This document shows positions 16,101 to 50,845 of a DNA stretch of 64,000 bases, in pieces (the first letter of the stretch is position 1; every line of letters starts with the position of its first letter). A model generated the notes under the pieces. That model was not told where the DNA came from. It did not search any database and saw nothing but the letters and a program-made list of their open reading frames with translations. A program made the position numbers and the translations under genes. Source of the stretch: Candidatus Forterrea multitransposorum CG_2015-17_Forterrea_25_41 (GTDB taxonomy: Archaea; Iainarchaeota; Iainarchaeia; Iainarchaeales; CSSED10-239); NCBI GenBank assembly GCA_009392915.1, contig CP045477.1, forward strand, positions 256,001 through 320,000. Reading direction: 5' to 3'.

Positions 16101-19100
16101 GAAACAAACAAATATTTAATACCTTTTGAAAATACAGATTATATTTATTCTGTAAAATTAAAAGACTGGAATCAAAATCTTTTAGAAGAATATGCTGGTG
16201 GTTATCCTGTATCTATTAATAATTTTTATAAATATGATCTAAGTTATTTATATTTAAATCAAACAGAAAGAAACGGTAGTGTTTTACAATCTTCTCAATA
16301 TACAAATAATAATTTAGATTATTTAAGTTATGGTTATACTTCATCTTTAGGTAACTCAAGTTCAGGAGATACTCAAAATGCTACAAATAACATGACTTCA
16401 TTTTTAATACTTCCAGATTATAATACTCTTCCAGGTTCAACAGATACTACTATAAATCAAGAAATCTATTATCATATTAATGTTGATGATTATAATTATT
16501 CTTTAGATGATATTAATGCAGAGATTGGTTATTATTTAAATACTTATACTCTTTTAGAGCCAAAAGGTTTTTTTGAAAATACTAATTTTTCAGATTCAAG
16601 TATTATTTCTGATGTTTTAGATGAGTACCCTTTAGTTAATACAAGTATTTATTCTTATTTATCTGATGAAAATTTTATATTTAATATTTCAACTAACTTT
16701 TCAGGAAACAGAATAATTATTGGTGAAAATAATTTAGGTTTTAAAGTTTTAGATAATTATGGTTCTCCAGTTTCAAATGTTTTAATAAAGTATAAAGTTG
16801 ATGGTGATGAGCTTATAACTTTAGGGTCTACAAATGAACAAGGTATGCTTAGTGATCAAAATATTTTTATAAATCTTTCAGATATTGGAAAAAATATTAA
16901 TTTTGTATTTTTGTTTTCTCCAGAGTTTGGTTTCCTTGCAAACACAGTTGTAAGAAACAAAGAAATCTATTCTGGATTTTCAATAGTTCCAGAAGATATT
17001 AATTTATCTGCAAGTTATTATATTTTAAATGATCAAGTTATAATTGATCAAGTTTCTACAAATAATTATAATCTTTTAAAAGAAACAAATTATTCAAGCA
17101 CTTTAGAAGAAATTGATTTTGTTGGAGAATCAAGTTTGTTTAATCTTGATTCTATTAAAAATAAAATGATTGAAGATAATAATCTTGTAAAAGATTTATT
17201 AGAAGGAGAAAATGAAATTATTACAAGTCTTTTCTTAAACAATAATATTTCTCAATCAACAAATCTTTTAGGTTATTATAGAAATGAAATTGATATTAAT
17301 AATTCTTTAACACAATTATTAGATATTAATTCAAATGTTGAAATTATTAATCTAGGTTCAATTAACTATGATTTTAATCTTGAAAAACATTTTATGAAAG
17401 GACTATTAATTGAAAACAATAATGTTTCTCTTGAGCTTATAAAAGAAATAAACGAATTAATTACTTTAGATTTAAATCTTTTATCAGATAACTCTCAAGC
17501 AACATTTGATAGTATTTCTGTAGAGCTTCCTGAATTTTTAGATCTTGAAGAATTTAATGAAGGTTATTCTTCTTTAGTTGGAGAGTCTTTAACTTCTGAT
17601 GGTTTAATAATTCCTCTTAACTTTAAGATTAATAACTCCTATTCAGGTTCTCTTCCAACTCCAAAGGAAGATATTAATTTAACTTTTAATGTTTATCTTG
17701 ATGATAAATTAGTTTCTTTTAATAAAATAATTTCAATAAAAGTATATTCTAAAGATGACATCTTTTTAATAGAGTCTGAAGGAGACTTACAGATCTATTG
17801 TACTGTTGAAAATTGTTCTCAAAAAAAATCTTTTACTTTTAAAAAATTAGTTAATAATTATATATTAAATCTAAATAAAGAAATTGAAATCAATGAGATG
17901 GATTTAATTGAAGTTTCAAATCTTTTAAGTAATATTAATTTTATTGACCTTTCTGAAAAGAACAGAGCTTTATCTTTTAGTGCCCTATATAATTCTGTTA
18001 ACGAAGAAAATAAACAAGGTAATTTTGATTTAATTTTTAATATTAATATTTTAAATGATTCTTTTAATATAGAAATACCTATTGATTATTTAATTATAAA
18101 ATATTTAGAAGAAGAAACCATAAGTGAAATTACTTTTAATTCCTGTATTGGTGTTGGTGGTCAAGAAAGCAGTAGTGATTTATTTATTTTAGGTTATTGT
18201 CAAGATACCCAAGATACTTGTAAAACAGGAGAATCTGCTGTTCCAAAAGTATTTTTTAATTGGGCAGAATCTGACCTTTCAACAGATTATGACGGAAAAA
18301 CCTGGAATAATGTCTGTATTGGTAATAGCCAAGATACAATGTCAAGTAAATATGCTTGTGATTCCTTACAAATGTTAATTTCAATTTTTAATAAAATTGA
18401 TAATGGTGTAGAAGAATCATTCTATATTAAACTTTTAAATGATGGAATTTCTGATGCTCTTTTAAAAGATTTTATAAATTATAATACACTTTACTTAGGT
18501 TATGATAAACCTAGTGAAGAGATCTTTTCAGAAGATGCAGTTGATGATGGTTTATTTAAAATAACAATTAATAATTCTCCAGAAATTAAAATTTTCCAAC
18601 CTGGTATCTATAAAGTTTTAGTATATGGTGATGATTCAGGAAATGCATATATGGGAAGAGAAGAAGATCAAATGATAGATATACGTCTAGAAAAGGTAAG
18701 TGATCTTCCTGCATCAGAGATAAGTGTATTCCACTATATGCCATTTAATGGTAATTTAGGTTTAGATGGTACAAGAGAGGGTTACGGTATTAAAAATCAA
18801 GATAGTGATGTTGCTCAATTAACTCAAGATGTTGATATTAATTATATTGATGTTATAGATGAAATAATTCAACTATCTTTAACTAATAATAATCTAGAAA
18901 CTTCTCACTTAACACAAACATTAAAGTCTGAAGGAAAAATACTTGAATTAAATAAATATGATAGTGTTGTTGAAATGATTTATTCTCCTTCATATCCAGT
19001 ACCAATATATTCTCATGTAGCATGTATTGATAAAGATGATTTTAGTTATAATCTTTATGAAAATAATAATGCTTTAGATAATATTATAGGTGGATCATTT

Positions 19101-19577
19101 ATTGATTGGAATTTTAATAATACCATAAGATCAGATGTTAAAACAACAGTAACAGGAGATGTTACTAGATACGTATTTAACAATAATAATTTAGAAGGTT
19201 CTTTAAACCTTAATTCAATGTTATATCTTCCTGTAAAATTAAATATTGATTCTTTAAAACTTAAAACCACAGAGTTTGCAAATAATAAAAATACAACTTT
19301 ATTTACAAAGAATAATTTTACAGGTGTAAATCAAGCAGATTTAGTTTTCTCTGAAGATGATTATGTTCTTGGAAATGATTTAATAAACCTTAATACTATT
19401 AAAGGTTTATTTAATTTTATAAGTCAAGAAAAAGCATGTATTGAAAAATCTATTGATAACACAACTATTAAATGGATTGATGAAAAAGTTAATTTTACAG
19501 AACAAGAATTACTTGATATAAATAGTAATATTCCTTCTGATTATTCTTGTCTTGAAGGAGAGGTAATCATAGATTAA
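13134..19577 (+). CDS. Giant (2147 aa) membrane-anchored surface protein. A ~185-aa Lys/Glu-rich N-terminal region precedes a single TM; beta-sandwich repeats and the shared C-terminal module follow.
   Basis: ORF begins 23 nt after the previous gene. KE-rich low-complexity N-terminus. TM segment FPSFILFLLILALLIYLILSG. Repeats of the ...KEGYLTNP / ...DxxGxVxF type. C-terminal motifs GYCQDTQDTCKTGESAVPKVFFNW, FHYMPFNGNLGLDGTREGYGI, EKACIEKSIDN. The true start could instead be the internal Met just before the TM (MVDGVSKV...). Confidence 0.8.
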   Translation: MSIFKKSRDKIEAEKLYALLSDKTTNYTLEDIKETIKKQGYSDKVSSIVVKMITDNKLPLKDSVNKTKTKEEVLKELSASVDKNFSKQNPKDSSKDSKKEDKNNQKENTKKQEDIKKEDSKKQKEDLKKTKETNLKNINKVPFFTKVKTFFKRIYFFFEDNYYKMVDGVSKVIPLNKLTDKIDKVFPSFILFLLILALLIYLILSGSLSFSKTWTVAVEVYDPSSVPLKDVSVTLMLKDENFSTLKTDIFGEVIFSDFKSRKQNINLIASKDNYDTVEHSFKLSKSNLRQKLYLPTDVNSKIDPSEEEVREISFVENNTVLITDSVLTTNFSCTNADVEPNPTRKVISSGKVTVTTYSGCGALRVSVTSDDFSSITNQVINSSNKVNLTRINLDRGNLGFSVKNISGSSIPGTEVKVYSSSNTTFPHDTTTTDLYGLGEFSLEPKSYFLTFSKEGYLTNPLKGPLTVIKNDSVNTDVVLFTLDDLLEFDCSDDKYSQFCIADEIDCFNPNLKPFLINNADGSCTIGRPGYISVTLKDVNSGEPVYADITLDSKLKESDQNFSLGEHIARDTNFYTFNVIDFYNYRVRVLNTEESGYLQPDPVTVNGIDQNITVNLEYSSSLNSGDISVNVKSADMPISNARVYLYKEFEDDFVLVNSDPLFTNQNGDVNFYSQRANRDYYAYALHNVLDKQGTSQTDDLDVNSILDLSIDLEDIPKILNLKVSPSISYDINFYNSSDNLVTEYVRTDLEDGNSLYYFTGSINKVYAVVSSSGYTTYQTDYITLIPDQEVYKTVNLSTLSSCEDSKLEILGLYDGSGVLEIDNIDFVENDLDKEYRLKFKYISCTEDEEYNQATLRLGRQGLIDDEYLFFVSDQFTSQDIDVTRGYKFSQEHIPDFNFDLFNLNYSQDRSYDYSGEGYKWIEIDFEKLNSDILEFSTNFKFREDSIVPFENYVLNYKSFASIYDELYSFDPVLNESWTEIPIYPNGYFYAETNKYLIPFENTDYIYSVKLKDWNQNLLEEYAGGYPVSINNFYKYDLSYLYLNQTERNGSVLQSSQYTNNNLDYLSYGYTSSLGNSSSGDTQNATNNMTSFLILPDYNTLPGSTDTTINQEIYYHINVDDYNYSLDDINAEIGYYLNTYTLLEPKGFFENTNFSDSSIISDVLDEYPLVNTSIYSYLSDENFIFNISTNFSGNRIIIGENNLGFKVLDNYGSPVSNVLIKYKVDGDELITLGSTNEQGMLSDQNIFINLSDIGKNINFVFLFSPEFGFLANTVVRNKEIYSGFSIVPEDINLSASYYILNDQVIIDQVSTNNYNLLKETNYSSTLEEIDFVGESSLFNLDSIKNKMIEDNNLVKDLLEGENEIITSLFLNNNISQSTNLLGYYRNEIDINNSLTQLLDINSNVEIINLGSINYDFNLEKHFMKGLLIENNNVSLELIKEINELITLDLNLLSDNSQATFDSISVELPEFLDLEEFNEGYSSLVGESLTSDGLIIPLNFKINNSYSGSLPTPKEDINLTFNVYLDDKLVSFNKIISIKVYSKDDIFLIESEGDLQIYCTVENCSQKKSFTFKKLVNNYILNLNKEIEINEMDLIEVSNLLSNINFIDLSEKNRALSFSALYNSVNEENKQGNFDLIFNINILNDSFNIEIPIDYLIIKYLEEETISEITFNSCIGVGGQESSSDLFILGYCQDTQDTCKTGESAVPKVFFNWAESDLSTDYDGKTWNNVCIGNSQDTMSSKYACDSLQMLISIFNKIDNGVEESFYIKLLNDGISDALLKDFINYNTLYLGYDKPSEEIFSEDAVDDGLFKITINNSPEIKIFQPGIYKVLVYGDDSGNAYMGREEDQMIDIRLEKVSDLPASEISVFHYMPFNGNLGLDGTREGYGIKNQDSDVAQLTQDVDINYIDVIDEIIQLSLTNNNLETSHLTQTLKSEGKILELNKYDSVVEMIYSPSYPVPIYSHVACIDKDDFSYNLYENNNALDNIIGGSFIDWNFNNTIRSDVKTTVTGDVTRYVFNNNNLEGSLNLNSMLYLPVKLNIDSLKLKTTEFANNKNTTLFTKNNFTGVNQADLVFSEDDYVLGNDLINLNTIKGLFNFISQEKACIEKSIDNTTIKWIDEKVNFTEQELLDINSNIPSDYSCLEGEVIID

Positions 19578-21198: not shown

Positions 21199-21271
21199 GG
21201 TCATAATAGTGTAGTGGTTAGCATAGGAGTCTGTGGAGCTTCTGGCCCGGGTTCAAATCCCGGTTATGACC
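21199..21271 (+). tRNA. tRNA-His (anticodon GTG) with a genome-encoded G-1 pairing to discriminator C73. No encoded CCA.
   Basis: G(-1)+GTCATAA acceptor pairs with TTATGAC+C. D-stem GTGT/GCAT. Anticodon loop CTGTGGA. T-arm CCGGG-TTCAAAT-CCCGG. Confidence 0.75.
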
Positions 21272-21453
21272 CTTTTTAACCTTCCTTTTAAGAAAAGAAA
21301 CGTTAACGAAAGAAAAGTAAACTTTCTTTTAGGTAAAGAAACGGTATAACAAAAGAAAAGTAAAAAGAGATGTTAAAATGAAAAAAAAAATAAAAACATT
21401 TACTTTTTATATGTTTTTGTAATTAAAATATAATATAGAAAAAAAGATTAAAT

Positions 21454-22770
21454 ATGAATGATAAAATAATACTTGAAACCGCAAAAGGTTTTAGAGACTT
21501 TTCTCCTGAAGAAAAGATATTAAGAGATAAAGTTATTTTTAAAATAAAAAACATTTTTGAAAATTATGGTTTTTCTCCTCTAGAGACCCCAACTGTTGAA
21601 AAATTAGAAATTTTAGAAGCAAAGTTTGGAGCTGGAGAAGCTTCAGATGCAGTTTCTGAAATCTATAGGTTTAAAGATCAAGGTGATAGAGACTTAGGTC
21701 TAAGATATGAGTTTACTTTTGCCTTAGCAAGATACATTGGAATGAATCCTCAAACAAGACTTCCTTTTAAAAGATACCAAATAGGTCCAGTTTTTAGAGA
21801 TGGTCCTATTAAAGCAGGAAGATATAGAGAGTTTTATCAATGTGATGTTGATATTATAGGTGTTAATTCTCAAGAAGCTGATGCTGAAATAATTTCTTTA
21901 CTTGATTATGTTTTTAAAGAACTTAATCTAGAGGTTAACATAGAAATTAACGATAGACGTCTTTTAGAAGAAATCTTAGATTTTCTAAAAGTTACAAAAG
22001 AAAAACAAACTTCAGTAATTATAACTATTGATAAGCTTAAGAAAACAGGTAAGGAAGGGGTTAAAAATGAGCTTTTATCTAAAGGTTTAGATGAAAATAC
22101 CTGTGATTCACTGTTAAATATACTTCTTATCTCTAAAACAAACCAAGAAGCTTTAGAAGACCTATCTAAAACAATAGGAGAAACAGAAGGTATTGTTTCT
22201 TTAAGAAATTTATTTAGTTTTTTAGAGTATTATAATGTTAATTATATTTTCCTACCTTCTCTTGCAAGAGGGCTTGGTTACTATACAGGTCCAATCTTTG
22301 AAGTTTTTTTAAAAGATGAAACTATAATGTCTTCTTCAATTGCTGGTGGAGGAAGATGGGATAAAATGATAGGAAAATACTTGCAAGATGAAAATAGAAA
22401 TTATCCTGCTGTGGGTGTTGCTTTTGGTCTTGAACCAATCATGGAAATTATAAAAAAAAGAGATGGTATGGATAAAAAAACAACTGCTGATCTTTTTATA
22501 ATACCAATTGGTGATAAAAATATAAAAAAAGCTATTAGAATAACTCAAGAGATTAGAAAACAAAAAGTTAATACTTCAATTGATCTTTTAAAAAGAAATA
22601 TTGGAAAAAATATAGATTATGCAGATAAACTTGGTATAACATATGTTGGTTTTTTAGGAGAAAATGAAATTTTAGAAAATAAAATAAAAATTAAAAATAT
22701 AAAAACTGGAGAAGAATCTTTAATTGATGTTAAAGATGTTAAAAAACATTTAGTTGTAGAAGGTAATTAG
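21454..22770 (+). CDS. hisS: Histidyl-tRNA synthetase (class II).
   Basis: Class II motifs GFRDFSPEE, LRYEFTFALARY, FKRYQIGPVFRDGP, YREFYQCDVDIIG. GLGYYTGPIFE motif 3 region. C-terminal anticodon-binding domain. Confidence 0.9.
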   Translation: MNDKIILETAKGFRDFSPEEKILRDKVIFKIKNIFENYGFSPLETPTVEKLEILEAKFGAGEASDAVSEIYRFKDQGDRDLGLRYEFTFALARYIGMNPQTRLPFKRYQIGPVFRDGPIKAGRYREFYQCDVDIIGVNSQEADAEIISLLDYVFKELNLEVNIEINDRRLLEEILDFLKVTKEKQTSVIITIDKLKKTGKEGVKNELLSKGLDENTCDSLLNILLISKTNQEALEDLSKTIGETEGIVSLRNLFSFLEYYNVNYIFLPSLARGLGYYTGPIFEVFLKDETIMSSSIAGGGRWDKMIGKYLQDENRNYPAVGVAFGLEPIMEIIKKRDGMDKKTTADLFIIPIGDKNIKKAIRITQEIRKQKVNTSIDLLKRNIGKNIDYADKLGITYVGFLGENEILENKIKIKNIKTGEESLIDVKDVKKHLVVEGN

Positions 22771-27179: not shown

Positions 27180-28307
27180 ATGAATTTTTTAAAAATAATC
27201 TCTTTTGTCTTAATTGGTTTAGTTGTTTTTTTAGTGGCATCTTCATATCTTGCAAATGATTCTTTTCAAGATGTAAAATCAGATACTTCTGATAAAATAG
27301 ATTCAACTATTGAAGATGTTAAAGATAATAATCTTTTTTCAAAACCAAAAGATGCATATGATTCTATAAAAAATAAAATTACCTTTGGTTCTTTTGATAG
27401 AAATATTTCAACTGAAGTATTTTTTTGTCCTGAAGAAGATTGTTTAACAGAACTTTTAGAGTTGATTTCTTCTTCTAAAAAAACAATTGATTGTGCGGTA
27501 TATGATGTTTCTCTTGAAACTGTAACTGATGCTTTAATTGAAAAATCAAATCAAGGTCTAGAAATAAGGTTTATTTCAGATTATGGAACTTCTCAAAATA
27601 AATCTTCAAATTTAGGATTATTAAAAGATTCAAATGTTACAGTTCTTACAAACTCTTCAGAATCTTCTTACATGCATAATAAATTTTGTGTTTTTGATGA
27701 AAAAATTGTTTTTGTAGGTTCAATGAATTTTACATTAAATGGAAATTATAAAAATAATAATAATGTTTTAATAATTGAAGATAAAGAAATTGCAAAAGAA
27801 TATACTAACAAAATAGATTCTTTTTTTAAAGGAGAATTTTCTCCAAAACCTAAAGAAGTTTATAATGTTAATAATTATGGTAATCTAGAAAATTATTTTT
27901 GTCCTGAAGATGATTGTTTATATCATCTTTTAAGATTTGCAAATGATGCTAATTATTCTATTGAATGTATGCTTTTTAGTTATACTTTAGATGATTTCTT
28001 TCAAGAAGTTGTTGATAAAAATATAGATCAGAGATATATTTTAGAGTCAAGAGGAATTAGTCAATATTCTAAATATAATGATCTTAAGAATAATTCCATT
28101 CCTGTTATTTTAGATCAAAACCCAAATAGTATGCATAATAAATTTTGTATTATTGATGATTATATTGTTTTAACTGGTTCTATGAACTATTCAAATAATG
28201 GTACTAAAAATAATGATGAAAGTTTTTTAGTAATACATGATTTTGAGATTGCTCAAGAATATAAAGATTATTTTAATGACTATTGGACATCTTGGAGTAA
28301 TAATTAA
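27180..28307 (+). CDS. Phospholipase D-superfamily protein with two HKD motifs and an N-terminal signal/TM anchor. Secreted or membrane-bound PLD-like nuclease or phospholipase.
   Basis: N-terminal IISFVLIGLVVFLVASSYLA. Two HxKxxxxD(x6)GSxN motifs: HNKFCVFDEKIVFVGSMNFT and HNKFCIIDDYIVLTGSMNYS. Confidence 0.8.
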   Translation: MNFLKIISFVLIGLVVFLVASSYLANDSFQDVKSDTSDKIDSTIEDVKDNNLFSKPKDAYDSIKNKITFGSFDRNISTEVFFCPEEDCLTELLELISSSKKTIDCAVYDVSLETVTDALIEKSNQGLEIRFISDYGTSQNKSSNLGLLKDSNVTVLTNSSESSYMHNKFCVFDEKIVFVGSMNFTLNGNYKNNNNVLIIEDKEIAKEYTNKIDSFFKGEFSPKPKEVYNVNNYGNLENYFCPEDDCLYHLLRFANDANYSIECMLFSYTLDDFFQEVVDKNIDQRYILESRGISQYSKYNDLKNNSIPVILDQNPNSMHNKFCIIDDYIVLTGSMNYSNNGTKNNDESFLVIHDFEIAQEYKDYFNDYWTSWSNN

Positions 28308-28379: not shown

Positions 28380-28453
28380 GGGGCTGTGGTGTAGCCTGGT
28401 TAGCATTTAAGCTTTGGGAGCTTACGACCCCCGTTCAAATCGGGGCAGTCCCA
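28380..28453 (+). tRNA. tRNA-Pro (anticodon TGG), 74 nt, no encoded CCA.
   Basis: Acceptor GGGGCTG/CAGTCCC (one G-U pair) with discriminator A. Anticodon stem TAAGC/GCTTA with loop TTTGGGA (G37). T-arm CCCCG-TTCAAAT-CGGGG. Confidence 0.7.
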
Positions 28454-28484
28454 CTCTTTTACTAAACTTCTTTAATAGATTATT

Positions 28485-29447
28485 ATGGCTAAATCAAATT
28501 CTTTATCTAAAAATTTTTTAGTTGAAAATTTTAATCCAAGGTATAAAGAAAAGAAACCTACTTTTTCTTCAAGAACAATAAGCATATTATCTGAAGTTAA
28601 ATCTGAACAATTATTTTTAAGAAACTTTAAGCAAGCTAAAGAAGAATATTCAAAAATTAAAAAAGAATTAAATCCTGTTTTTGAAAAAAGAAAAAAAGAA
28701 AATCTTGCAAAATTTAATGATTATTTATCTCTTGAAAGAACTTCTGTAAAAAATCTTTTAGATTTTTTAAGTAATAATGATCAAAAGATTAGAAGAATAA
28801 AAAATATGATTGAAAGTAGAACTAAATATTCTTCTGATATTAAATTAAATAAAGCTCAACAATTTTATTTAAAATATTTAAATCTAATGTTAAGAAAAAG
28901 CGATCAATTACTTTATTATTTAAAAGAAATGAAAGCAATTCACAATCTTCCAAAAAGTAAAGAACTTCCTAAAAGATATTCTGATAAAATAGATGAACTT
29001 AAACTAAGATTAAAAAAAATGTCTCATAGAAAAAGATATTTATTAGAAGAAAAAGATTATTCTTTAAATTTTTTAAGTAATAATTTACCAAATCTTAAAT
29101 CTGATTATAAACTTAAAGCAGCTGGTGAAGGGAAAGAAATTATTAATGCTGAAAATCATCATGAATCACAAATTAAAAATATTGATTCACAATTAAGTGA
29201 TATTGAAACTAATACTTTAAGACTAAAAAAAAGAATTGAAGAATTAACAAAGCAAGGCCATGAAGAAAATCTTAGATCTTTTATTTCTCAAGAAAAAAAG
29301 AAGATTCCAGTTCTTAAAAAAAAATTTAAAGAAAAATTTCCTGATTTTATAACTCTTTATCAAATTTTCATGGAAGAAAGAAATAGTATTGAAGAAAAAT
29401 TTTATATTGACCTTTATCTTAATGGTAAGTTAAGTAATATTAAATAA
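28485..29447 (+). CDS. Hypothetical Lys-rich coiled-coil protein (320 aa).
   Basis: Long K/E/L-rich heptad-like sequence with no catalytic motif recognised. Confidence 0.4.
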   Translation: MAKSNSLSKNFLVENFNPRYKEKKPTFSSRTISILSEVKSEQLFLRNFKQAKEEYSKIKKELNPVFEKRKKENLAKFNDYLSLERTSVKNLLDFLSNNDQKIRRIKNMIESRTKYSSDIKLNKAQQFYLKYLNLMLRKSDQLLYYLKEMKAIHNLPKSKELPKRYSDKIDELKLRLKKMSHRKRYLLEEKDYSLNFLSNNLPNLKSDYKLKAAGEGKEIINAENHHESQIKNIDSQLSDIETNTLRLKKRIEELTKQGHEENLRSFISQEKKKIPVLKKKFKEKFPDFITLYQIFMEERNSIEEKFYIDLYLNGKLSNIK

Positions 29448-29526
29448 ATTTTAATTTTATATTATATAGTTTCTTTTTTAAATATATTGCCTTATATAAT
29501 ATATTACTTAAAATATGTGATTATAT

Positions 29527-30990
29527 ATGCCTTCAGATGAAAAATATAAAATAAAAGATTTAAACGAATGGTTTAATGATATTATCTTTAAAGCAGAACT
29601 TATTGATGTAAGATATAACTTAAAAGGTTTTACTGTATTTAGACCAAGATCTGTTTTTTCAATAAGTAAAATGTTTAGAATATATGAAGATAAGTTTAAT
29701 GAAACTGGTCATCAACAAGTAATGATGCCTGCATTAATACCTGAAGAAAATTTTTTAAAAGAATCAGATCATATTGAAGGCTTTACTCCTGAAGTTTTCT
29801 GGGTAACTAAACATGGAGATGAAGATTTTGAACAAAAGTATGCATTAAGACCAACTTCTGAAACTGCATTTTATTATATGTTTAAATATTGGGTACAAAG
29901 TTATAGAGACTTACCTTTAAAAACATATCAAAGAGCAAATGTTTTTAGATTTGATTCAAAAGCTACAAAACCATTTATTAGAGGTAGAGAATTTTACTGG
30001 TATGAATCTCATAATATTTTTGAAACTTTACAAGAAGCAGTAAATCAAGTTTATGAAGATATGCAAATAACAGAAGATATGCTTCATGAAGAATTTGGTA
30101 TACCATTTATTTTCTTTAAAAGACCACAATGGGATAAATTTCCAGGAGCTGTAGATACTTTTGCAGCAGATACTATTTTAGATAATGGAAGAATATTACA
30201 ACTTCCTTCAACACATCTTTTAGGAACTAAGTTTACTGAAACTTTTGATGTTAAGTTTAAAGATAAAGATGATGAAATGAAATATCCTTTTGGTACTTGT
30301 TATGGTCCTGCAATTTCAAGAATATATGGTGGAATGATTTGTGTTCATGGAGATTCTCTTGGTTTAAGAATACCTTTTGATTTAGCTCCTGTTCAAATAA
30401 TTTTAGTTCCTTTATATTTTAGTGATTTTGATAATACTAAATTAGAAGCATTTTGTTTAGATATAGCACAAGATTTAGATAAACTTGGATATAGAGTAAA
30501 AATAGATGATCAGACTTCAAAAACTCCAAAAGAAAGATTTTCAGAATATGAAATGAAAGGAATCCCTATAAGAATAGAAATTGGTCCAAAAGATATTTTT
30601 TCAGGAACAGTTGTAATCTTTAGAAGAGATTTAAATGAAAAGAAAAAAGTTGATGTTGCAGATATTTTTGATGAAATAAAACTTATTGAATCTGAGTTTA
30701 TAAATAATTTAAGATCTCAAGCAGATGAAGTTTTTGAAGAAAAAATTATAACTGTTAACAACATGGATGATTTAAAAGAAGTTATAGATGATAACCTTGT
30801 TGCAAGAGTACCATTTTGTTCAATAGATATGGATGGTAAAAATTGTTTTGAAGAACTTAAAGCAGAAACAAAAGGTGGAGACATTAGAGGAGTAAGGATG
30901 GATGTTAAAGAAGTTCCTGAAGAAAATGATGTTTGTGTTGTTTGTAAAAAGAAAGCTCAATCTATTGTGTATGTAGGTAAAAGTTATTAA
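29527..30990 (+). CDS. proS: Prolyl-tRNA synthetase, archaeal/eukaryotic type, with a C-terminal zinc-binding domain.
   Basis: Class II motifs (FRPRSVF, RPTSETAFYYMF...YRDLPLKTYQRANVFRFD). Anticodon-binding domain. C-terminal CVVCKK...YVGKSY. Confidence 0.9.
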   Translation: MPSDEKYKIKDLNEWFNDIIFKAELIDVRYNLKGFTVFRPRSVFSISKMFRIYEDKFNETGHQQVMMPALIPEENFLKESDHIEGFTPEVFWVTKHGDEDFEQKYALRPTSETAFYYMFKYWVQSYRDLPLKTYQRANVFRFDSKATKPFIRGREFYWYESHNIFETLQEAVNQVYEDMQITEDMLHEEFGIPFIFFKRPQWDKFPGAVDTFAADTILDNGRILQLPSTHLLGTKFTETFDVKFKDKDDEMKYPFGTCYGPAISRIYGGMICVHGDSLGLRIPFDLAPVQIILVPLYFSDFDNTKLEAFCLDIAQDLDKLGYRVKIDDQTSKTPKERFSEYEMKGIPIRIEIGPKDIFSGTVVIFRRDLNEKKKVDVADIFDEIKLIESEFINNLRSQADEVFEEKIITVNNMDDLKEVIDDNLVARVPFCSIDMDGKNCFEELKAETKGGDIRGVRMDVKEVPEENDVCVVCKKKAQSIVYVGKSY

Positions 30991-45644: not shown

Positions 45645-47843
45645 ATGGGAAGAAAAGAACAAGTTGCTGAGCTTGCAGAAAAGCTTATGGCAAATACAAA
45701 AAATATTAGAAATATTGCAATTATTGCACACATTGATCATGGAAAATCTACTTTAACAGACAATTTAGTTGCAACTGCTGGTTTAATTTCAAAAGATTTA
45801 GCAGGAGAACAAAGATTCATGGATTCATATGTTTTAGAACAAGAAAGAGGAATTACAATTAATTCTGCAAACGTTTCTGTTCCATGTGATATTGATGGTG
45901 AAAAATTTTTAATAAATATTATTGATACACCAGGTCACGTTGATTTCACTGGTGATGTTATAAGAGCGATGAGAGCTGTTGATGGTGCTGTTTTAGTTGT
46001 TGATGCTGTTGAAGGTGTTATGCCACAAACAGAAACTGTATTAAGACAAGCTTTAAGAGAAAAAGTAAAACCTGTACTTTTTATTAATAAAGTTGATAGA
46101 TTAATTACAGAAATGCATGTAACTCCAGAAGATATGCAAAAGAAATTTGTTAAAGTTGTAATGGATATTAATAATTTAATTGCAAAAAATGCTCCTGAAG
46201 AATTCAGAAAAGATTGGTTAGTAAATATTGCAGATGGTTCTGTATGTTTTGGTTCTGGTTTCCATAATTGGTCTCTTTCAGTTCCTGCTATGAAAAAATA
46301 TAATGTAACTTTTAAAGATGTTATTGAGTATGCAGAAAATGAAAAACAAAAAGAACTTGCAGATAAAATTCCAATTTCAGAAGTTTTCTTAGGAATGGTT
46401 GCAAAACATCTTCCTGATCCAAAGACTTCTCAAAAATATAGAATCCCAACTATTTGGAAAGGAGATCCTGAATCCCCAGAAGGAAAAGCAATGTCTGAAT
46501 GTAATACTACATCAGAAGAAGTTTCAATGATGGTAACTGATATTGTTTTAGATAAACATGCAGGAGATATTGCTTCTGGAAGAATTTATTCTGGATCAAT
46601 TAAAAAAGGAATGGATTTAAAAGTTTTAGGAACAGATAGAACAACTAAAGTTCAATATGTTGGTATTTATTTAGGTCCTGAAAGAGTTATTTTAGATGAA
46701 GTAAAATCTGGAAATATTGCTGCAATTATTGGACTTAAAGAAGTTTATGCTGGTCAAACAATTGCAAGTCACGATATTGTTCCATTTGAAGATTTCATGT
46801 CAGATGTTGAACCAGTAATGACTGTTTCTGTTGAAGCTAAAAATTCAAAAGATCTTCCAAGATTAATTCAAGTTATTCATAATATAACTAAAGAAGATCC
46901 AAACATAAAAGCTGAATTAAATCAAGATACAGGAGAACATCTTTTATCAGGTATGGGTGAACTTCACTTAGAAATTACACAATACAAGATTGAAAAAGAT
47001 AATAATATTCCAATAACTGTTTCACCACCAATTGTTGTTTACTATGAAACAACAACACAAGAATCTCCAGTTGTTGAAGGAAAGACTCCAAACAAACACA
47101 ATAAATTTAAAGTTAGAGTTGAACCAATCTCTTCAGAAATGCTTGAAAAAATTAGAAAAATTAAGTTTACTGGAAAGATAAGACCTAACAAAGATTTAGA
47201 TATTATTAAAAAATTACAAGAAGCAGGATTTGATGTTGACGAATCAAAGAATGTTTGGGCAATCAATAATCATTCAATTTTAATTAATAGAACAAAAGGA
47301 ATACAAAACTTAAATGAAGTTAGAGAACTTATAATTGAAGGATTTACAGATGCTACAAATGAAGGTCCTGTTGCTAAAGAAAAAGTATCTGGAATTATTG
47401 TTTCTCTTGAAGATGCAACATTACACGAAGATGCAATCCACAGAGGTCCTGCACAAGTTCTTCCTGCAATAACAAGAGCAATATATGCTGGTGTACTTGC
47501 TGGTAACTATGTTCTTTTAGAACCAAAACAAAGTTTAACTGTTTCAGTTCCTCAAGATTTTATGGGTTCTGTTTCTAAAGTTTTATCTTCAAGAAGAGCA
47601 CAAATTGAAGATATTAAAACAGAAGGAGATTCTTCAATTTTTATTAGTAAGATTCCTGTAAAATCAATGATTGGTTTCTCACAAGAGATGAGAGGAGAAA
47701 CACAAGGTAGAGCTGTTTGGACTGCTGAATATTTTGGTTATGAACAACTTCCAAAAAGTATGCTTAAAGACACAATCATAGATATTAGAAAAAGAAAAGG
47801 TATGGATCCTGAACCAAAACCTGCTGAGTTTTTCATGGATTAA
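45645..47843 (+). CDS. fusA: Translation elongation factor 2 (aEF-2).
   Basis: G-domain motifs AHIDHGKST, DTPGHVDF, NKVDR. Domain IV diphthamide-site His in AIHRGPAQ. SD-like AAAGGTGAAAG upstream. Confidence 0.95.
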   Translation: MGRKEQVAELAEKLMANTKNIRNIAIIAHIDHGKSTLTDNLVATAGLISKDLAGEQRFMDSYVLEQERGITINSANVSVPCDIDGEKFLINIIDTPGHVDFTGDVIRAMRAVDGAVLVVDAVEGVMPQTETVLRQALREKVKPVLFINKVDRLITEMHVTPEDMQKKFVKVVMDINNLIAKNAPEEFRKDWLVNIADGSVCFGSGFHNWSLSVPAMKKYNVTFKDVIEYAENEKQKELADKIPISEVFLGMVAKHLPDPKTSQKYRIPTIWKGDPESPEGKAMSECNTTSEEVSMMVTDIVLDKHAGDIASGRIYSGSIKKGMDLKVLGTDRTTKVQYVGIYLGPERVILDEVKSGNIAAIIGLKEVYAGQTIASHDIVPFEDFMSDVEPVMTVSVEAKNSKDLPRLIQVIHNITKEDPNIKAELNQDTGEHLLSGMGELHLEITQYKIEKDNNIPITVSPPIVVYYETTTQESPVVEGKTPNKHNKFKVRVEPISSEMLEKIRKIKFTGKIRPNKDLDIIKKLQEAGFDVDESKNVWAINNHSILINRTKGIQNLNEVRELIIEGFTDATNEGPVAKEKVSGIIVSLEDATLHEDAIHRGPAQVLPAITRAIYAGVLAGNYVLLEPKQSLTVSVPQDFMGSVSKVLSSRRAQIEDIKTEGDSSIFISKIPVKSMIGFSQEMRGETQGRAVWTAEYFGYEQLPKSMLKDTIIDIRKRKGMDPEPKPAEFFMD

Positions 47844-48106: not shown

Positions 48107-48346
48107 ATGGCTGTAAAAAAGAAAGTAGTTGCAAAAAAAGCACCTGCTAAAAAAGCTGTTGTTAAGAAAAAAGCACCTGTTAAAAAAGTAGTTGCTAAAA
48201 AAGCACCAGCTAAAAAAGTAGTTGCAAAAAAAGCACCTGCTAAAAAAGCTGTTGTTAAAAAAGCACCTGCTAAAAAAGTAGTTGCTAAAAAAGCACCAGC
48301 TAAAAAAGTAGTTAAAAAGAAAGCACCTGCTAAAAAGAAAAAATAG
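48107..48346 (+). CDS. Lys/Ala-rich tandem-repeat basic protein (79 aa), with about 6 copies of the KKAPAKKVVA repeat. Histone-H1-tail-like or Hc1-like candidate nucleoid protein.
   Basis: Strong SD GGAGGGAG 8 nt upstream. Protein consists almost entirely of AKKAPAKK(A/V)VV units. 30-nt periodicity at the DNA level. Confidence 0.7.
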   Translation: MAVKKKVVAKKAPAKKAVVKKKAPVKKVVAKKAPAKKVVAKKAPAKKAVVKKAPAKKVVAKKAPAKKVVKKKAPAKKKK

Positions 48347-48476: not shown

Positions 48477-49604
48477 ATGATTAAAAATATAACTTTATTA
48501 GGTTCAAATAATGATATTGGTATTAAGACAATTGAGTTTTTAAAAAACAATACTAATAAGTTTAAAATCTATTCTCTTTCTTATGACTCTAAGGTAGATA
48601 ATCTTGATTTTTTTATATCTCAAATAAAAGATGTTTCTCCAAAGAAAGTTTTTATACCTTTAGAAAAAGATGCTGAATATATAGAATCTAAAACTAAGGT
48701 TGAGATAATTACAGGTACTGAAAATTTTCCTGAGTTTATAAAATCAAATGAAATTGATCAAGTAATTTCTTCTTTATCAGGACTTTCAAGTGTTAAAAAA
48801 ATATTATCAACTATTTATGAGTTTAAAGATATTACTTTACTTAATACATCTCCTTTTCTATATTGTGGAAGAATAATTACAAATGAAGTTAAATCAAAAG
48901 GAGTAAATTTTAATATTTTTTCATATCCAGTTTATTCTTTAGATTTTATTTTAAAATCTTCAAATATTAATTTTATTAAAAATATTAATTTATTTACAAA
49001 ACAAAAAAACAAAAAAGAAAAAATAACTATTAATGATTATAAAGATTTTGGAAGTTATCTTAAAGCATATTATTCTGAAAATAATATAAGACTTGTAAAT
49101 GATATGTTTATTATTTATTATTTATATAATATTCCAATAGATAATTTTAATTTTTATGAACAATCAGAAAGAATAATAAATATTGAAATAAAATTTTTAA
49201 ATGGTACAAGTGTTTTCTTTAAAGCAAATCTAGATATAGATAGTATTTTTAATTATTATTTTTTAGATAATGAAAAAATAGTTGAAAATAAAGAAAAAGA
49301 TCTTGATAAAATATCTTTTTCATATAAAAAAATAGATCCAACTAAAGAAAAGTTTTTAAGTTTAGGTATAGAAACTTTAAAAAAAGGTGGTTCTTTTCCA
49401 ATAATCTATTATATAACAATTGAAACATTACTTTATTATATTTATAAAAGAAAAATTAAAGAAAACATAGATATTTATAAAATTGTTAAAGAATTTTTAG
49501 AAGACAAAACACTTTATGATAAATTCCCTGATTTAAGTTCTGTTTATGCTATTGATAATAAGATAAATGAAAAAATCAAAAATAAATTTAATATTAAAAA
49601 CTAA
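48477..49604 (+). CDS. Dxr (1-deoxy-D-xylulose-5-phosphate reductoisomerase)-fold homolog with degenerate NADPH-binding and catalytic residues. Probable non-catalytic or repurposed Dxr-like protein.
   Basis: N-terminal 160 aa are colinear with bacterial Dxr. ITLLGSNNDIG matches ILGSTGSIG. DQVISSLSGLSSVKKILSTI matches DxVxAIVGAAGLxPTLAAI. KDITLLNTSPFLYCGRII matches KTILLANKESLVTCGRLF. IFSYPVYSLDFIL matches LLPVDSEHNAIFQSL. Spacing is conserved (LLNTSP at aa 121-126). The comparison is from memory of E. coli Dxr, not a database search. Confidence 0.5.
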   Translation: MIKNITLLGSNNDIGIKTIEFLKNNTNKFKIYSLSYDSKVDNLDFFISQIKDVSPKKVFIPLEKDAEYIESKTKVEIITGTENFPEFIKSNEIDQVISSLSGLSSVKKILSTIYEFKDITLLNTSPFLYCGRIITNEVKSKGVNFNIFSYPVYSLDFILKSSNINFIKNINLFTKQKNKKEKITINDYKDFGSYLKAYYSENNIRLVNDMFIIYYLYNIPIDNFNFYEQSERIINIEIKFLNGTSVFFKANLDIDSIFNYYFLDNEKIVENKEKDLDKISFSYKKIDPTKEKFLSLGIETLKKGGSFPIIYYITIETLLYYIYKRKIKENIDIYKIVKEFLEDKTLYDKFPDLSSVYAIDNKINEKIKNKFNIKN

Positions 49605-50380
49605 ATTGATTCTTCATAAATTATAATTCCAGCATTACTTTTTTCTTTAGCTTCTTTTAAAAGATTTTTATTTTCTTCAATATATTTAACACCATAGTTT
49701 GCAACTACATGCCCAAAACAGTATTTATTATTTATATTAAAGGTAAGTCTATTAAATCTTGTACAATAATGACTTCCTCCAACACCAACAGCTTCAATCC
49801 ATTGATTTTTATTTTTAATTTCTTCTTTGTTATAATCTTTAATATTTTCTATTAAGATTTTAATCATATATTTTGAAACTAATTTATTTGTCCAATCATT
49901 TTCACAAGATCCTATTTCATAAAATAAAGTTGGTTCTTCAAGATATGGTCCATGATGCGTTGCTTCTTGTTTAATTTCATATTCTTTTATTTCTTTAGGT
50001 TTATTTTTTTTTAATTCTATTAAAAGTAATCTCATTAATATTGGGTCAGCTTTTACAACTGCATGATCTTTTCCACCTAATTCTGCAATTCCCCAATTAC
50101 CGATTGCATGTACTGTCATACATTTAGGTTTATTTTCAGAAAGAGTAGAATGTCTTGACAAAAAGATAATTTGATCATATTTTTTTTCTCCAACAATATT
50201 TTTTTCTGAAGAATAAATATGTGTTTCTGATATTTCTTTGAAGAATATTTCGTTTTTACTTTCAATATTTATTTTATAGATTTTATCATCTATTTTTTCT
50301 AAAGAATAATAATTAAACAATTCTTCCTTAAGATTAATTGAAGCTAAATCTTCTTTTGAAGTAATTATTAAAATTTTCAT
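49601..50380 (-). CDS. dtdA: D-aminoacyl-tRNA deacylase, archaeal DTD2/DtdA-type.
   Basis: N-terminus MKILIITSKEDLASINLKEEL plus internal SRHS, TVHAIGNW...GG, ATHHGP and GVGGSHY motifs match the tRNA_deacylase (PF04414) pattern as recalled. Convergent with the upstream gene, overlapping by 4 nt. Confidence 0.55.
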   Translation of the reverse strand: MKILIITSKEDLASINLKEELFNYYSLEKIDDKIYKINIESKNEIFFKEISETHIYSSEKNIVGEKKYDQIIFLSRHSTLSENKPKCMTVHAIGNWGIAELGGKDHAVVKADPILMRLLLIELKKNKPKEIKEYEIKQEATHHGPYLEEPTLFYEIGSCENDWTNKLVSKYMIKILIENIKDYNKEEIKNKNQWIEAVGVGGSHYCTRFNRLTFNINNKYCFGHVVANYGVKYIEENKNLLKEAKEKSNAGIIIYEESI

Positions 50381-50491: not shown

Positions 50492-50845
50492 ATGATAAAT
50501 ATTACAAACTCTCTATTTCCGTTTAGATTAAACATTAATGAAAAAAACCCAATAGAATTAACTTTAAAAATAAAAAATATGGGTGTTGAAGATAAATTTA
50601 TAAGTTATGATGTAATTTTAGAAAGAACTCTTTCTTTTGATAAAAGTGGTCTTAAAAAATCAGTTTCAATAAGACACGGAACTTTAAAACCAGATGAAAC
50701 TATATCTGAAAAATTAGACATTTTTCCTTTCCAAGGTATTAAAGCAGGAGACCATAGAGTTTTAGTTATTGTTAACGAACATTATTTAGATTATACTTCT
50801 TTAAAACAAAAAACAGAGAAAGTAATTATCATTAGATCCTTCTAA
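50492..50845 (+). CDS. Hypothetical protein (117 aa).
   Basis: ORF with an upstream AAGGTGAA RBS-like motif. No motif recognised. Confidence 0.4.
   Translation: MINITNSLFPFRLNINEKNPIELTLKIKNMGVEDKFISYDVILERTLSFDKSGLKKSVSIRHGTLKPDETISEKLDIFPFQGIKAGDHRVLVIVNEHYLDYTSLKQKTEKVIIIRSF

What the first reader, a model, noticed from the sequence alone, without database searches (positions are those of the whole stretch)
48477..49604. Dxr (MEP-pathway reductoisomerase)-fold protein with an ablated active site in an archaeon
The N-terminal ~160 aa align colinearly with bacterial Dxr/IspC with conserved spacing. ILGSTGSIG aligns to LLGSNNDIG. AIVGAAGLLPTLAAI aligns to SSLSGLSSVKKILSTI. ILLANKESLVTCGRLF aligns to ITLLNTSPFLYCGRII. 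LLPVDSEHNAIFQSL aligns to IFSYPVYSLDFILKS. The dinucleotide-binding Thr/Gly/Ser, the catalytic Lys-Glu, and the metal/substrate-binding Asp-Ser-Glu-His are all replaced. The C-terminal half has diverged beyond recognition. Archaea make isoprenoids via mevalonate and do not use Dxr. A Dxr-derived pseudoenzyme here implies horizontal acquisition followed by repurposing to a scaffold or binding role, or a novel activity. This is based on my recollection of the E. coli Dxr sequence, not a search.
Basis: partly seen in the sequence, partly recalled or inferred. Interest (0 to 1): 0.65.

Follow-up and report, generated by a model that had tools for sequence, protein, structure and literature searches.

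The report
Catalytically dead Dxr homologue in DPANN archaea
This gene encodes a well-conserved archaeal protein that keeps the full shape of the bacterial isoprenoid enzyme Dxr but has lost almost every residue the enzyme needs, so it has been repurposed for an unknown job and is wrongly labelled "Dxr" by annotation pipelines.

Summary

Metal ligands D150 and E152, plus K125, K228, H209 and H257, are retained in 0 of 27 relatives. The flexible active-site loop is shortened, and G11 of the NADPH loop is never glycine. Only 2 of 28 canonical-invariant columns survive.

It is not a decaying relic. It belongs to a discrete family of about 31 proteins (28-100% identical, 369-394 aa) found only in Iainarchaeota-type DPANN archaea. 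dN/dS is 0.13, equal to the neighbouring DtdA gene. In every genome examined it lies after EF-2 and tail-to-tail with DtdA.

Also, some DPANN archaea do carry genuine, horizontally acquired Dxr.

Function is unknown. A non-catalytic binding or scaffold role is most likely, and a new enzymatic activity is not excluded. I found no prior description.

The parts
48477..49604 (+). Dxr-like ORF, 375 aa plus stop; member of a discrete Iainarchaeota-restricted family
48477..48911 (+). N-terminal Rossmann-type domain (aa 1-145), the most conserved part of the family (2.96 bits per column)
   Evidence: PF02670 in 27/27 members; secondary structure; conservation
48501..48521 (+). Degenerate dinucleotide-binding loop G9-S-N-N-D-I-G15 (canonical GSTGSIG). 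The middle glycine G11 is never Gly in the family, and clade II has (A/G)SQRKKS
48780..48905 (+). Family conservation peak (aa 102-143): G102, S105, K107, L110, E115, K117, D118, N123, P126, Y129, G131, I133, E137, K141. It includes LLNTSP (aa 121-126) in place of canonical LANKE (K125->T, E126->S)
48912..49286 (+). Central domain (aa 146-270), equivalent to the Dxr catalytic domain. The fold is kept but the sequence is not recognised by PF08436. S149-Y150-P151-V152 replaces D150-S151-E152-H153, the flexible-loop region is shortened (an 8-10-residue gap around Ec 210-221 whose position depends on the alignment), and H251->Q/S and H257->N/S
49347..49601 (+). C-terminal four-helix domain (aa 291-375), recognisable as DXPR_C; has a family-specific conserved Y-x-K-x-P-D-L-S motif (aa 347-354)
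   Evidence: PF13288 in 23/27 members
49601..50380 (-). D-aminoacyl-tRNA deacylase DtdA, convergent with the Dxr-like gene with 3' ends overlapping by 4 nt. This tail-to-tail pair is conserved in every relative examined
   Evidence: PF04414 E=2.5e-48; synteny
45645..47843 (+). Archaeal EF-2, the conserved upstream neighbour at the end of the rpo-L7Ae-S12-S7-EF2 cluster

Best explanation
The gene encodes a class-I Dxr (IspC) descendant that has kept the complete three-domain Dxr architecture. It has lost the machinery for the NADPH- and Mg/Mn-dependent conversion of DXP to MEP. It belongs to a discrete, vertically inherited family confined to Iainarchaeota-type DPANN archaea, present at a fixed genomic position (after EF-2, tail-to-tail with DtdA) and under purifying selection as strong as on neighbouring housekeeping enzymes. 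Shown: homology, fold, loss of catalytic and cofactor residues, selection, restricted distribution, synteny. Inferred: it no longer works as Dxr and does not signal a MEP pathway. Most likely it acts as a non-catalytic ligand- or partner-binding protein that uses the remodelled interdomain cleft and the newly conserved aa 102-143 block of the Rossmann domain. Constraint has moved from the catalytic domain to that block. The stated confidence is a blend: about 0.9 that it is a selected, Dxr-inactive homologue, and about 0.5 that its present role is non-catalytic binding or scaffolding.
Against: No direct functional evidence exists. The former cleft still carries family-conserved polar and aromatic residues (S/T149, Y150, Y153, S154, K196, Y199, N202, K203, Y217, Y261), which could equally mark a new active site. 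In hhalign and one of the two L-INS-i alignments an acidic residue (D209; D/E in 24 of 27) and S200 fall at the E231 and S222 positions. In default MAFFT and phmmer they do not, and the second L-INS-i alignment still pairs E231 with D209 (D in 17 of 32, H in 13) but not S222 with a serine. The register in aa 196-212 is therefore unresolved. Clade I keeps G9, G15, N42 and an Asp after strand 2 (D37), so some nucleotide binding cannot be excluded for that clade. I could not inspect model coordinates, so the statements about the cleft rest on sequence equivalence to known Dxr residues.
Confidence: 0.6

Rival explanations
1. Neo-functionalised enzyme. The Dxr scaffold has evolved a new, metal-independent active site in the remodelled cleft and acts on a different substrate, with or without a nicotinamide cofactor.
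For: Purifying selection is as strong as on real enzymes. Conserved hydroxyl, aromatic and basic residues lie at or next to former active-site positions: S/T149 in 32/32, Y153 in 27/32, S154 in 29/32, K196 in 31/32, Y199 in 28/32, N202 in 31/32, K203 in 27/32, Y217 in 32/32 and Y261 in 32/32, including a Y199-x-x-x-K203 spacing. Clade I retains G9/G15 and an Asp after strand 2.
Against: The glycine-rich loop is not conserved across the family. Clade II has (A/G)SQRKKS where the dinucleotide diphosphate should sit. The central domain is the least constrained of the three domains. No match to any other enzyme family was found in Pfam or NCBIfam. A YxxxK spacing is common by chance.
Confidence: 0.25
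2. Translation-linked accessory protein. It works with DtdA and/or EF-2, for example in D-aminoacyl-tRNA or ribosome-associated quality control, which would explain the invariant EF-2 / Dxr-like / DtdA arrangement.
For: The EF-2 ... Dxr-like -> <- DtdA arrangement, with 3' ends abutting or overlapping by 4-11 nt, is kept in all seven genomes examined down to about 30% identity, while the outer neighbours change. The family pI is about 9.
Against: The genes are convergent and so not co-transcribed. Overlapping 3' ends and position at the edge of the very stable rpo-str cluster can freeze synteny without any functional link. A basic pI is normal for Lys-rich, AT-rich proteomes. No RNA-binding domain or Rfam element lies nearby.
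Confidence: 0.1
3. It is still a working Dxr with an unusual active site, supplying MEP in an archaeon that acquired the MEP pathway.
For: The full Dxr fold is retained. JGI pipelines annotate family members as Dxr. MEP pathways exist in other DPANN lineages (PMC8421398).
Against: Two of the three metal ligands (D150, E152) and K125, K228, H209 and H257 are absent in every member, and the active-site lid is shortened. Scores are 4-7 times below the equivalog cutoffs. No MEP genes occur in the window or related loci. Iainarchaeota are reported to have MVA genes (PMC10936187, PMC6107057).
Confidence: 0.02
4. Decaying relic of a once-acquired dxr gene, with no present function.
For: The catalytic residues are lost. 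This segment has the lowest GC of its surroundings (0.204).
Against: dN/dS is 0.13 at unsaturated dS. The reading frame is intact and the length is constant in more than 30 lineages down to 28% identity. New family-specific invariant residues have appeared. The gene is retained in 0.7-0.8 Mb reduced genomes.
Confidence: 0.02

Closest known systems
[quoted passage not shown]
   Different: 16-27% identity. G11, K125, D150, E152, H153, S186-G-G, H209, M214, K228, H251 and H257 are all lost. The flexible lid is shortened. PF08436 is not detected. NCBIfam equivalog cutoffs are missed by a factor of 4-7. There is no MEP context.
Canonical, horizontally acquired Dxr of other DPANN archaea (Woesearchaeota, Nanoarchaeota, some Micrarchaeota)
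   Same: A Dxr-family gene in a DPANN archaeon, with a bacterial origin inferred in the literature (PMC8421398, PMC6107057, PMC12892359).
   Different: Those are reported as parts of complete or near-complete MEP pathways with close bacterial relatives. This family is a separate, long-branched, catalytically stripped clade in a phylum reported to use MVA genes (PMC10936187). I did not retrieve identified Woesearchaeota Dxr sequences, so a sister relationship is untested.
DXR-II / DRL (Brucella abortus DXR-like enzyme, PDB 3upl)
   Same: Rossmann-based protein linked to the same reaction; distant structural similarity.
Rossmann-fold pseudo-dehydrogenases used as sensors or scaffolds (e.g. NmrA, HSCARG/NMRAL1) - comparison from my own knowledge, not tested here
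   Same: The concept: a dehydrogenase fold retained under selection after loss of catalytic residues and used for binding or regulation.
   Different: Those are SDR-derived and keep a functional dinucleotide-binding loop. Here the glycine-rich loop itself is degenerate, and there is no homology beyond the Rossmann fold.

Membership tests
Dxr/IspC class I (functional enzyme, EC 1.1.1.267) | Three-domain Dxr fold (Rossmann N-domain, central alpha/beta domain, C-terminal helical bundle) | tested here: met
Dxr/IspC class I (functional enzyme, EC 1.1.1.267) | PF02670 N-terminal domain above gathering score | tested here: met
   57.1 bits against 21.7; 27/27 family members
Dxr/IspC class I (functional enzyme, EC 1.1.1.267) | PF08436 central catalytic domain | tested here: not met
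   No hit in the query, and 0/27 members even at E<=1
Dxr/IspC class I (functional enzyme, EC 1.1.1.267) | PF13288 C-terminal domain above gathering score | tested here: inconclusive
   The query scores 21.7 bits, below the gathering score of 27 (E=2.5e-4). 23/27 members match at E<=1, best 7.6e-8
Dxr/IspC class I (functional enzyme, EC 1.1.1.267) | NADPH-binding loop G8-S-T-G11-S-I-G14 | tested here: not met
   G11 is N/T/R/S in all members, T10 is N/D/Q, and clade II has (A/G)SQRKKS
Dxr/IspC class I (functional enzyme, EC 1.1.1.267) | Divalent-metal ligands D150, E152, E231 | tested here: not met
   D150->S/T and E152->P/Q/T with 0 acidic residues in all members. The E231 equivalent is ambiguous: D209 in hhalign and both L-INS-i alignments, hydrophobic in default MAFFT and phmmer
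Dxr/IspC class I (functional enzyme, EC 1.1.1.267) | Substrate and phosphate-binding residues K125, E126, S186, S222, N227, K228 and the lid H209/W212/M214 | tested here: not met
   K125 0/27; K228 0/27; N227 kept in 1/27 in one alignment and 16/32 in the other; S186 variable; M214 never retained (deleted or replaced by F/Y, depending on the alignment) within a shortened loop; H209 0/27. Only S222 (register-dependent) and an aromatic residue at W212 may persist
Dxr/IspC class I (functional enzyme, EC 1.1.1.267) | NCBIfam equivalog score cut-offs (TIGR00243, NF009114, NF003938) | tested here: not met
   76.7 against 315.7; 82.6 against 461; 64.9 against 515 bits
Dxr/IspC class I (functional enzyme, EC 1.1.1.267) | Co-occurrence with the other MEP genes (dxs, ispD-H) in the genome | not testable with these tools
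   None in the 64-kb window or in about 200 kb of related loci. The whole 0.84-Mb contig could not be fetched. The literature reports MVA genes for Iainarchaeota (PMC10936187)
Pseudoenzyme (operational definition) | Clear homology to an enzyme family, loss of essential catalytic residues, and maintenance by purifying selection | tested here: met
   homology and loss; dN/dS 0.13; conserved family
DXR-II / DRL | Closest structural and sequence relatives are DRL or homoserine-dehydrogenase-like oxidoreductases | tested here: not met

The most novel reading that the evidence does not exclude
The family is a new functional class built on the Dxr scaffold. It could be an enzyme with a newly evolved, metal-independent active site formed by the family-invariant Ser/Thr, Tyr, Lys and Asn residues that now line the old cleft. 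Alternatively it could be a dedicated partner of the archaeal translation quality-control machinery (DtdA, EF-2) in genome-reduced Iainarchaeota. Either would be the first documented exaptation of a MEP-pathway enzyme in Archaea.
Probability: 0.25. Interest if true: 0.7.

Novelty: new variant of a known kind. Interest (0 to 1): 0.45.

Why it matters
There are three reasons.

1. Practical. [quoted passage not shown] Metabolic reconstructions of DPANN archaea that count pathway genes can then report a spurious 'partial MEP pathway' in Iainarchaeota. This bears directly on the debate over which DPANN lineages make their own isoprenoid lipids.

2. Evolutionary. In a lineage with 0.7-0.8 Mb genomes, a 375-aa protein kept under strong constraint after losing its enzymatic site must do something useful. 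It is a clean, datable example of exaptation of a probably bacterial enzyme in an archaeon.

3. Structural. It shows which parts of the Dxr fold are dispensable for folding and which for catalysis. That is relevant to Dxr as an antimicrobial target.

Tried and rejected
- The search for related loci with the full family alignment failed because no stretch was conserved enough. I repeated it with a closer subset. That pattern search undercounts genomes.
- AFDB fold libraries were unavailable, so I could not look for annotated or analogous degenerate Dxr models elsewhere.
- The sigma-70 promoter and terminator scan is uninformative in a 20% GC archaeal region (32 sites against 22.7 expected, 0 terminators). 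A TTTAAATA about 25 nt upstream of the ATG fits a leaderless archaeal transcript, but it is weak evidence at this composition.
- Rfam and tRNA scans found nothing near the gene.
- The default MAFFT alignment and the two L-INS-i alignments disagree on the register of aa 196-212. I report only conclusions that hold in all registers and flag E231 and S222 as ambiguous.
- I considered a distance tree to locate the bacterial donor and rejected it. The family sits on a very long branch, the canonical hits have no taxonomy, and the top hits look driven by AT-rich composition, so a result would not be trustworthy.
- Literature searches for Dxr or reductoisomerase with pseudoenzyme, DXR-like with archaea, and Diapherotrites or Iainarchaeota with MEP or DXP found no description of this family.
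- tblastn with three canonical Dxr sequences found no second Dxr copy in the window or related loci.

Full report
**1. The observation**

The ORF is real: 48477..49604, + strand, ATG start, 375 aa. The window is from a very AT-rich archaeon, at 20-31% GC. Its gene content is archaeal and typical of DPANN:
- split RNA polymerase subunits, Rpb5, L7Ae, S12, S7 and EF-2;
- an archaeal-type D-aminoacyl-tRNA deacylase;
- several aminoacyl-tRNA synthetases;
- two giant surface proteins of 2147 and 2466 aa.

A 90%-identical orthologue lies in a MAG named Candidatus ainarchaeum sp. A 62%-identical one lies in a Candidatus Iainarchaeum MAG. Both belong to phylum Iainarchaeota, formerly Diapherotrites.

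**2. Homology to Dxr**

Homology to Dxr is not in doubt.
- PF02670 matches at 57.1 bits against a gathering score of 21.7.
- phmmer against PDB sequences returns only DXRs, with alignments spanning residues 2-327 and 3-363.
- A profile of 27 family members against a profile of 18 canonical Dxr sequences gives probability 99.95%, E=2e-37 and 371 aligned columns.
- AlphaFold2 gives a confident model (pLDDT 91.8, pTM 0.90). Its 50 best Foldseek matches in the PDB are all DXR (best E=4.8e-23, TM 0.84 over about 375 columns).

All three Dxr domains are therefore present. PF13288 (C-terminal domain) is found in 23 of 27 members. The central catalytic domain PF08436 is the part no member matches, with 0 of 27.

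**3. State of the active site**

I used E. coli numbering and the hhalign and L-INS-i alignments.

| Canonical feature | State in the family |
|---|---|
| G8-S-T-G11-S-I-G14 (NADPH loop) | G-S-N-N-x-x-G in clade I; (A/G)-S-Q-R-K-K-S in clade II; G11 never Gly |
| K125-E126 | T/L then S/E; no Lys in any member |
| D150-S151-E152-H153 | S/T, Y, P/Q, hydrophobic; no acidic residue at 150 or 152 |
| S186-G-G | lost |
| Flexible lid H209/W212/M214 | region shortened by an 8-10-residue gap; H209 and M214 never retained |
| N227, K228 | K228 never Lys; N227 is R/K in one alignment, Asn in 16 of 32 in the other |
| H251, H257 | Q/S and N/S |

Of 28 columns invariant in canonical Dxr, only two are kept in at least 90% of the family, in either of two alignments.

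One uncertainty remains. The register of residues 196-212 differs between methods. In hhalign and one L-INS-i run, S200 and D209 fall on S222 and E231. In default MAFFT and phmmer they do not. The second L-INS-i run keeps D209 opposite E231 but not a serine opposite S222. A vestige of one metal ligand may therefore persist.

Whichever register is right, two of the three metal ligands, the catalytic Lys and the lid are gone. NCBIfam's Dxr equivalog models score 65-83 bits against cutoffs of 316-515.

**4. A maintained family, not a relic**

A word-indexed search of 5.8 billion proteins found 21 relatives with 32-100% identity and 338-384 aa, followed by a sharp drop to canonical Dxr. An exhaustive HMMER pass over 1.84 billion cluster representatives found 10 clusters at E<=1e-30. 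The next full-length hits, at E~1e-15, have every canonical motif intact. The family profile separates 31 members (351-530 bits) from canonical Dxr (112 bits or less) with nothing in between.

Two subclades are visible from the N-terminal loop: GSNNxxG and ASQRKKS. Both lack the catalytic set, so the loss predates their split.

Against the 90%-identical orthologue, dN/dS is 0.133 at dS=0.36. The same genome pair gives 0.138 for DtdA, 0.091 for EF-2 and 0.083 for the downstream 117-aa ORF. The family also has its own invariant residues: F46, F87, L110, K117, D118, Y129, G131, I133, E137, Y217, Y261 and P308.

The distribution of constraint has changed. Canonical Dxr is most conserved in the central catalytic domain (2.85 bits per column, against 2.45 N-terminal and 2.29 C-terminal). 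The family is most conserved in the N-terminal domain (2.96), peaking at aa 106-135. The central domain is the least conserved of the three (2.53).

**5. Genomic context**

In every genome examined the gene follows EF-2, at the end of the rpoH-rpoB-rpoA-L7Ae-S12-S7-EF2 cluster. It is convergent with DtdA, with their 3' ends abutting or overlapping by 4-11 nt. The relatives examined were 90, 62, 50, 32 and about 30% identical. Genes further out differ: MMPL and ABC transporters here, and thymidylate/folate genes in clade II.

Convergent genes are not co-transcribed, and overlapping ends at the edge of a very stable cluster can freeze synteny. I therefore treat a functional link to translation quality control as a low-probability rival, not a finding.

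No MEP or mevalonate gene occurs in the 64-kb window or in the roughly 200 kb of related loci. There is no second Dxr copy. I could not fetch whole genomes.

**6. Comparison with what is known**

The premise that archaea never use Dxr is outdated. Woesearchaeota, Nanoarchaeota and some Micrarchaeota carry bacterially derived MEP genes including dxr (PMC8421398, PMC10936187, PMC12892359, PMC6107057). For Iainarchaeota/Diapherotrites the same literature reports MVA genes (PMC10936187, PMC6107057).

I found no paper describing a degenerate Dxr clade. NCBI calls these proteins hypothetical, and JGI calls them Dxr. The protein is not a DXR-II/DRL (PMC3847144).

Conceptually it resembles Rossmann-fold pseudo-dehydrogenases such as NmrA or HSCARG. 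That comparison is from my own knowledge and was not tested. It differs from them in that its dinucleotide loop is itself degenerate.

**7. How it most likely works**

Shown: it is a selected, Dxr-fold protein that cannot perform Dxr chemistry.

Inferred: it acts by binding something through the remodelled cleft and the conserved aa 102-143 block. I put a non-catalytic role at about 0.5. A new enzymatic activity using the conserved Ser/Thr, Tyr, Lys and Asn residues that now line the cleft gets about 0.25. A DtdA/EF-2-linked role gets about 0.1. A working Dxr or a decaying relic each get about 0.02.

The origin by horizontal transfer is plausible but untested. The long branch and the composition-driven top hits give no donor signal.

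**8. Verdict**

Three corrections apply: which domain diverged, the register of one motif, and the archaeal MEP premise.

This is a new variant of a known kind: a pseudoenzyme or exapted-enzyme clade of a well-known family. Interest is moderate. It matters for DPANN metabolic annotation and as a clean case of enzyme exaptation, but its function is still unknown.

Noticed in passing
window 48107..48346 (+): A 79-aa Lys/Ala/Pro-rich ORF made of about nine tandem AKKAPAKKVV-like units. It has a weak histone-H1-like HC2 match (35 bits, below the gathering score of 40) and a GGAGGGAG Shine-Dalgarno-like motif upstream. It is conserved in L007 (78 aa, 97% identity, dN/dS 0.145), and a 79-aa ORF occupies the same spot in L003. 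It is probably a real small basic nucleic-acid-binding protein.
   Followed up: partly
window 2848..10248 (+) and 13134..19577 (+): Two giant ORFs (2466 and 2147 aa) with CarboxypepD_reg, Big_1 and SpaA Ig-like domains. They are flanked by 809-836-aa ORFs with no Pfam match. This looks like a DPANN-style giant surface or adhesion protein locus.
   Followed up: no
window 21200..22770 and 28380..30990 (+): tRNA-His(GTG) lies directly upstream of histidyl-tRNA synthetase. tRNA-Pro(TGG) lies about 1 kb upstream of prolyl-tRNA synthetase. In both cases a tRNA gene sits next to its cognate synthetase.
   Followed up: no
window 49601..49604; L001 9128-9131; L005 9142-9152; L044 7145-7155; L045 7100-7110; L046 4110-4120: The Dxr-like and DtdA genes are convergent. 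Their 3' ends overlap by 4-11 nt in six of the seven genomes examined, and abut without overlapping in L003/L004. This may lock the pair together or allow antisense interference.
   Followed up: partly
L005, L006, L044, L046 (downstream of DtdA): In the divergent clade II genomes, the genes beyond DtdA form a thymidylate/folate cluster: SHMT, ThyX or ThyA, DHFR, dCMP deaminase fused to a kinase, and Tmk. That cluster is absent from this position in the window.
   Followed up: no
window 27180..28307 (+): A 375-aa protein with two PLD-like domains (cardiolipin-synthase/phospholipase-D family, PF13091 E=9e-43). It is a phospholipid head-group enzyme in a lineage thought to have limited lipid synthesis.
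   Followed up: no
window 50492..50845 (+): A 117-aa ORF with no Pfam match, conserved at 97% identity in L007 with dN/dS 0.083. An ORF of the same size lies at the same position in L001. It is a small conserved protein of unknown function.
   Followed up: partly
family members in public databases (P0006, P0007, P0010, P0013, P0017, P0018, P0021, P0178, P0184, P0186): [quoted passage not shown] This is a systematic misannotation that can create false partial MEP pathways in DPANN metabolic reconstructions.
   Followed up: yes
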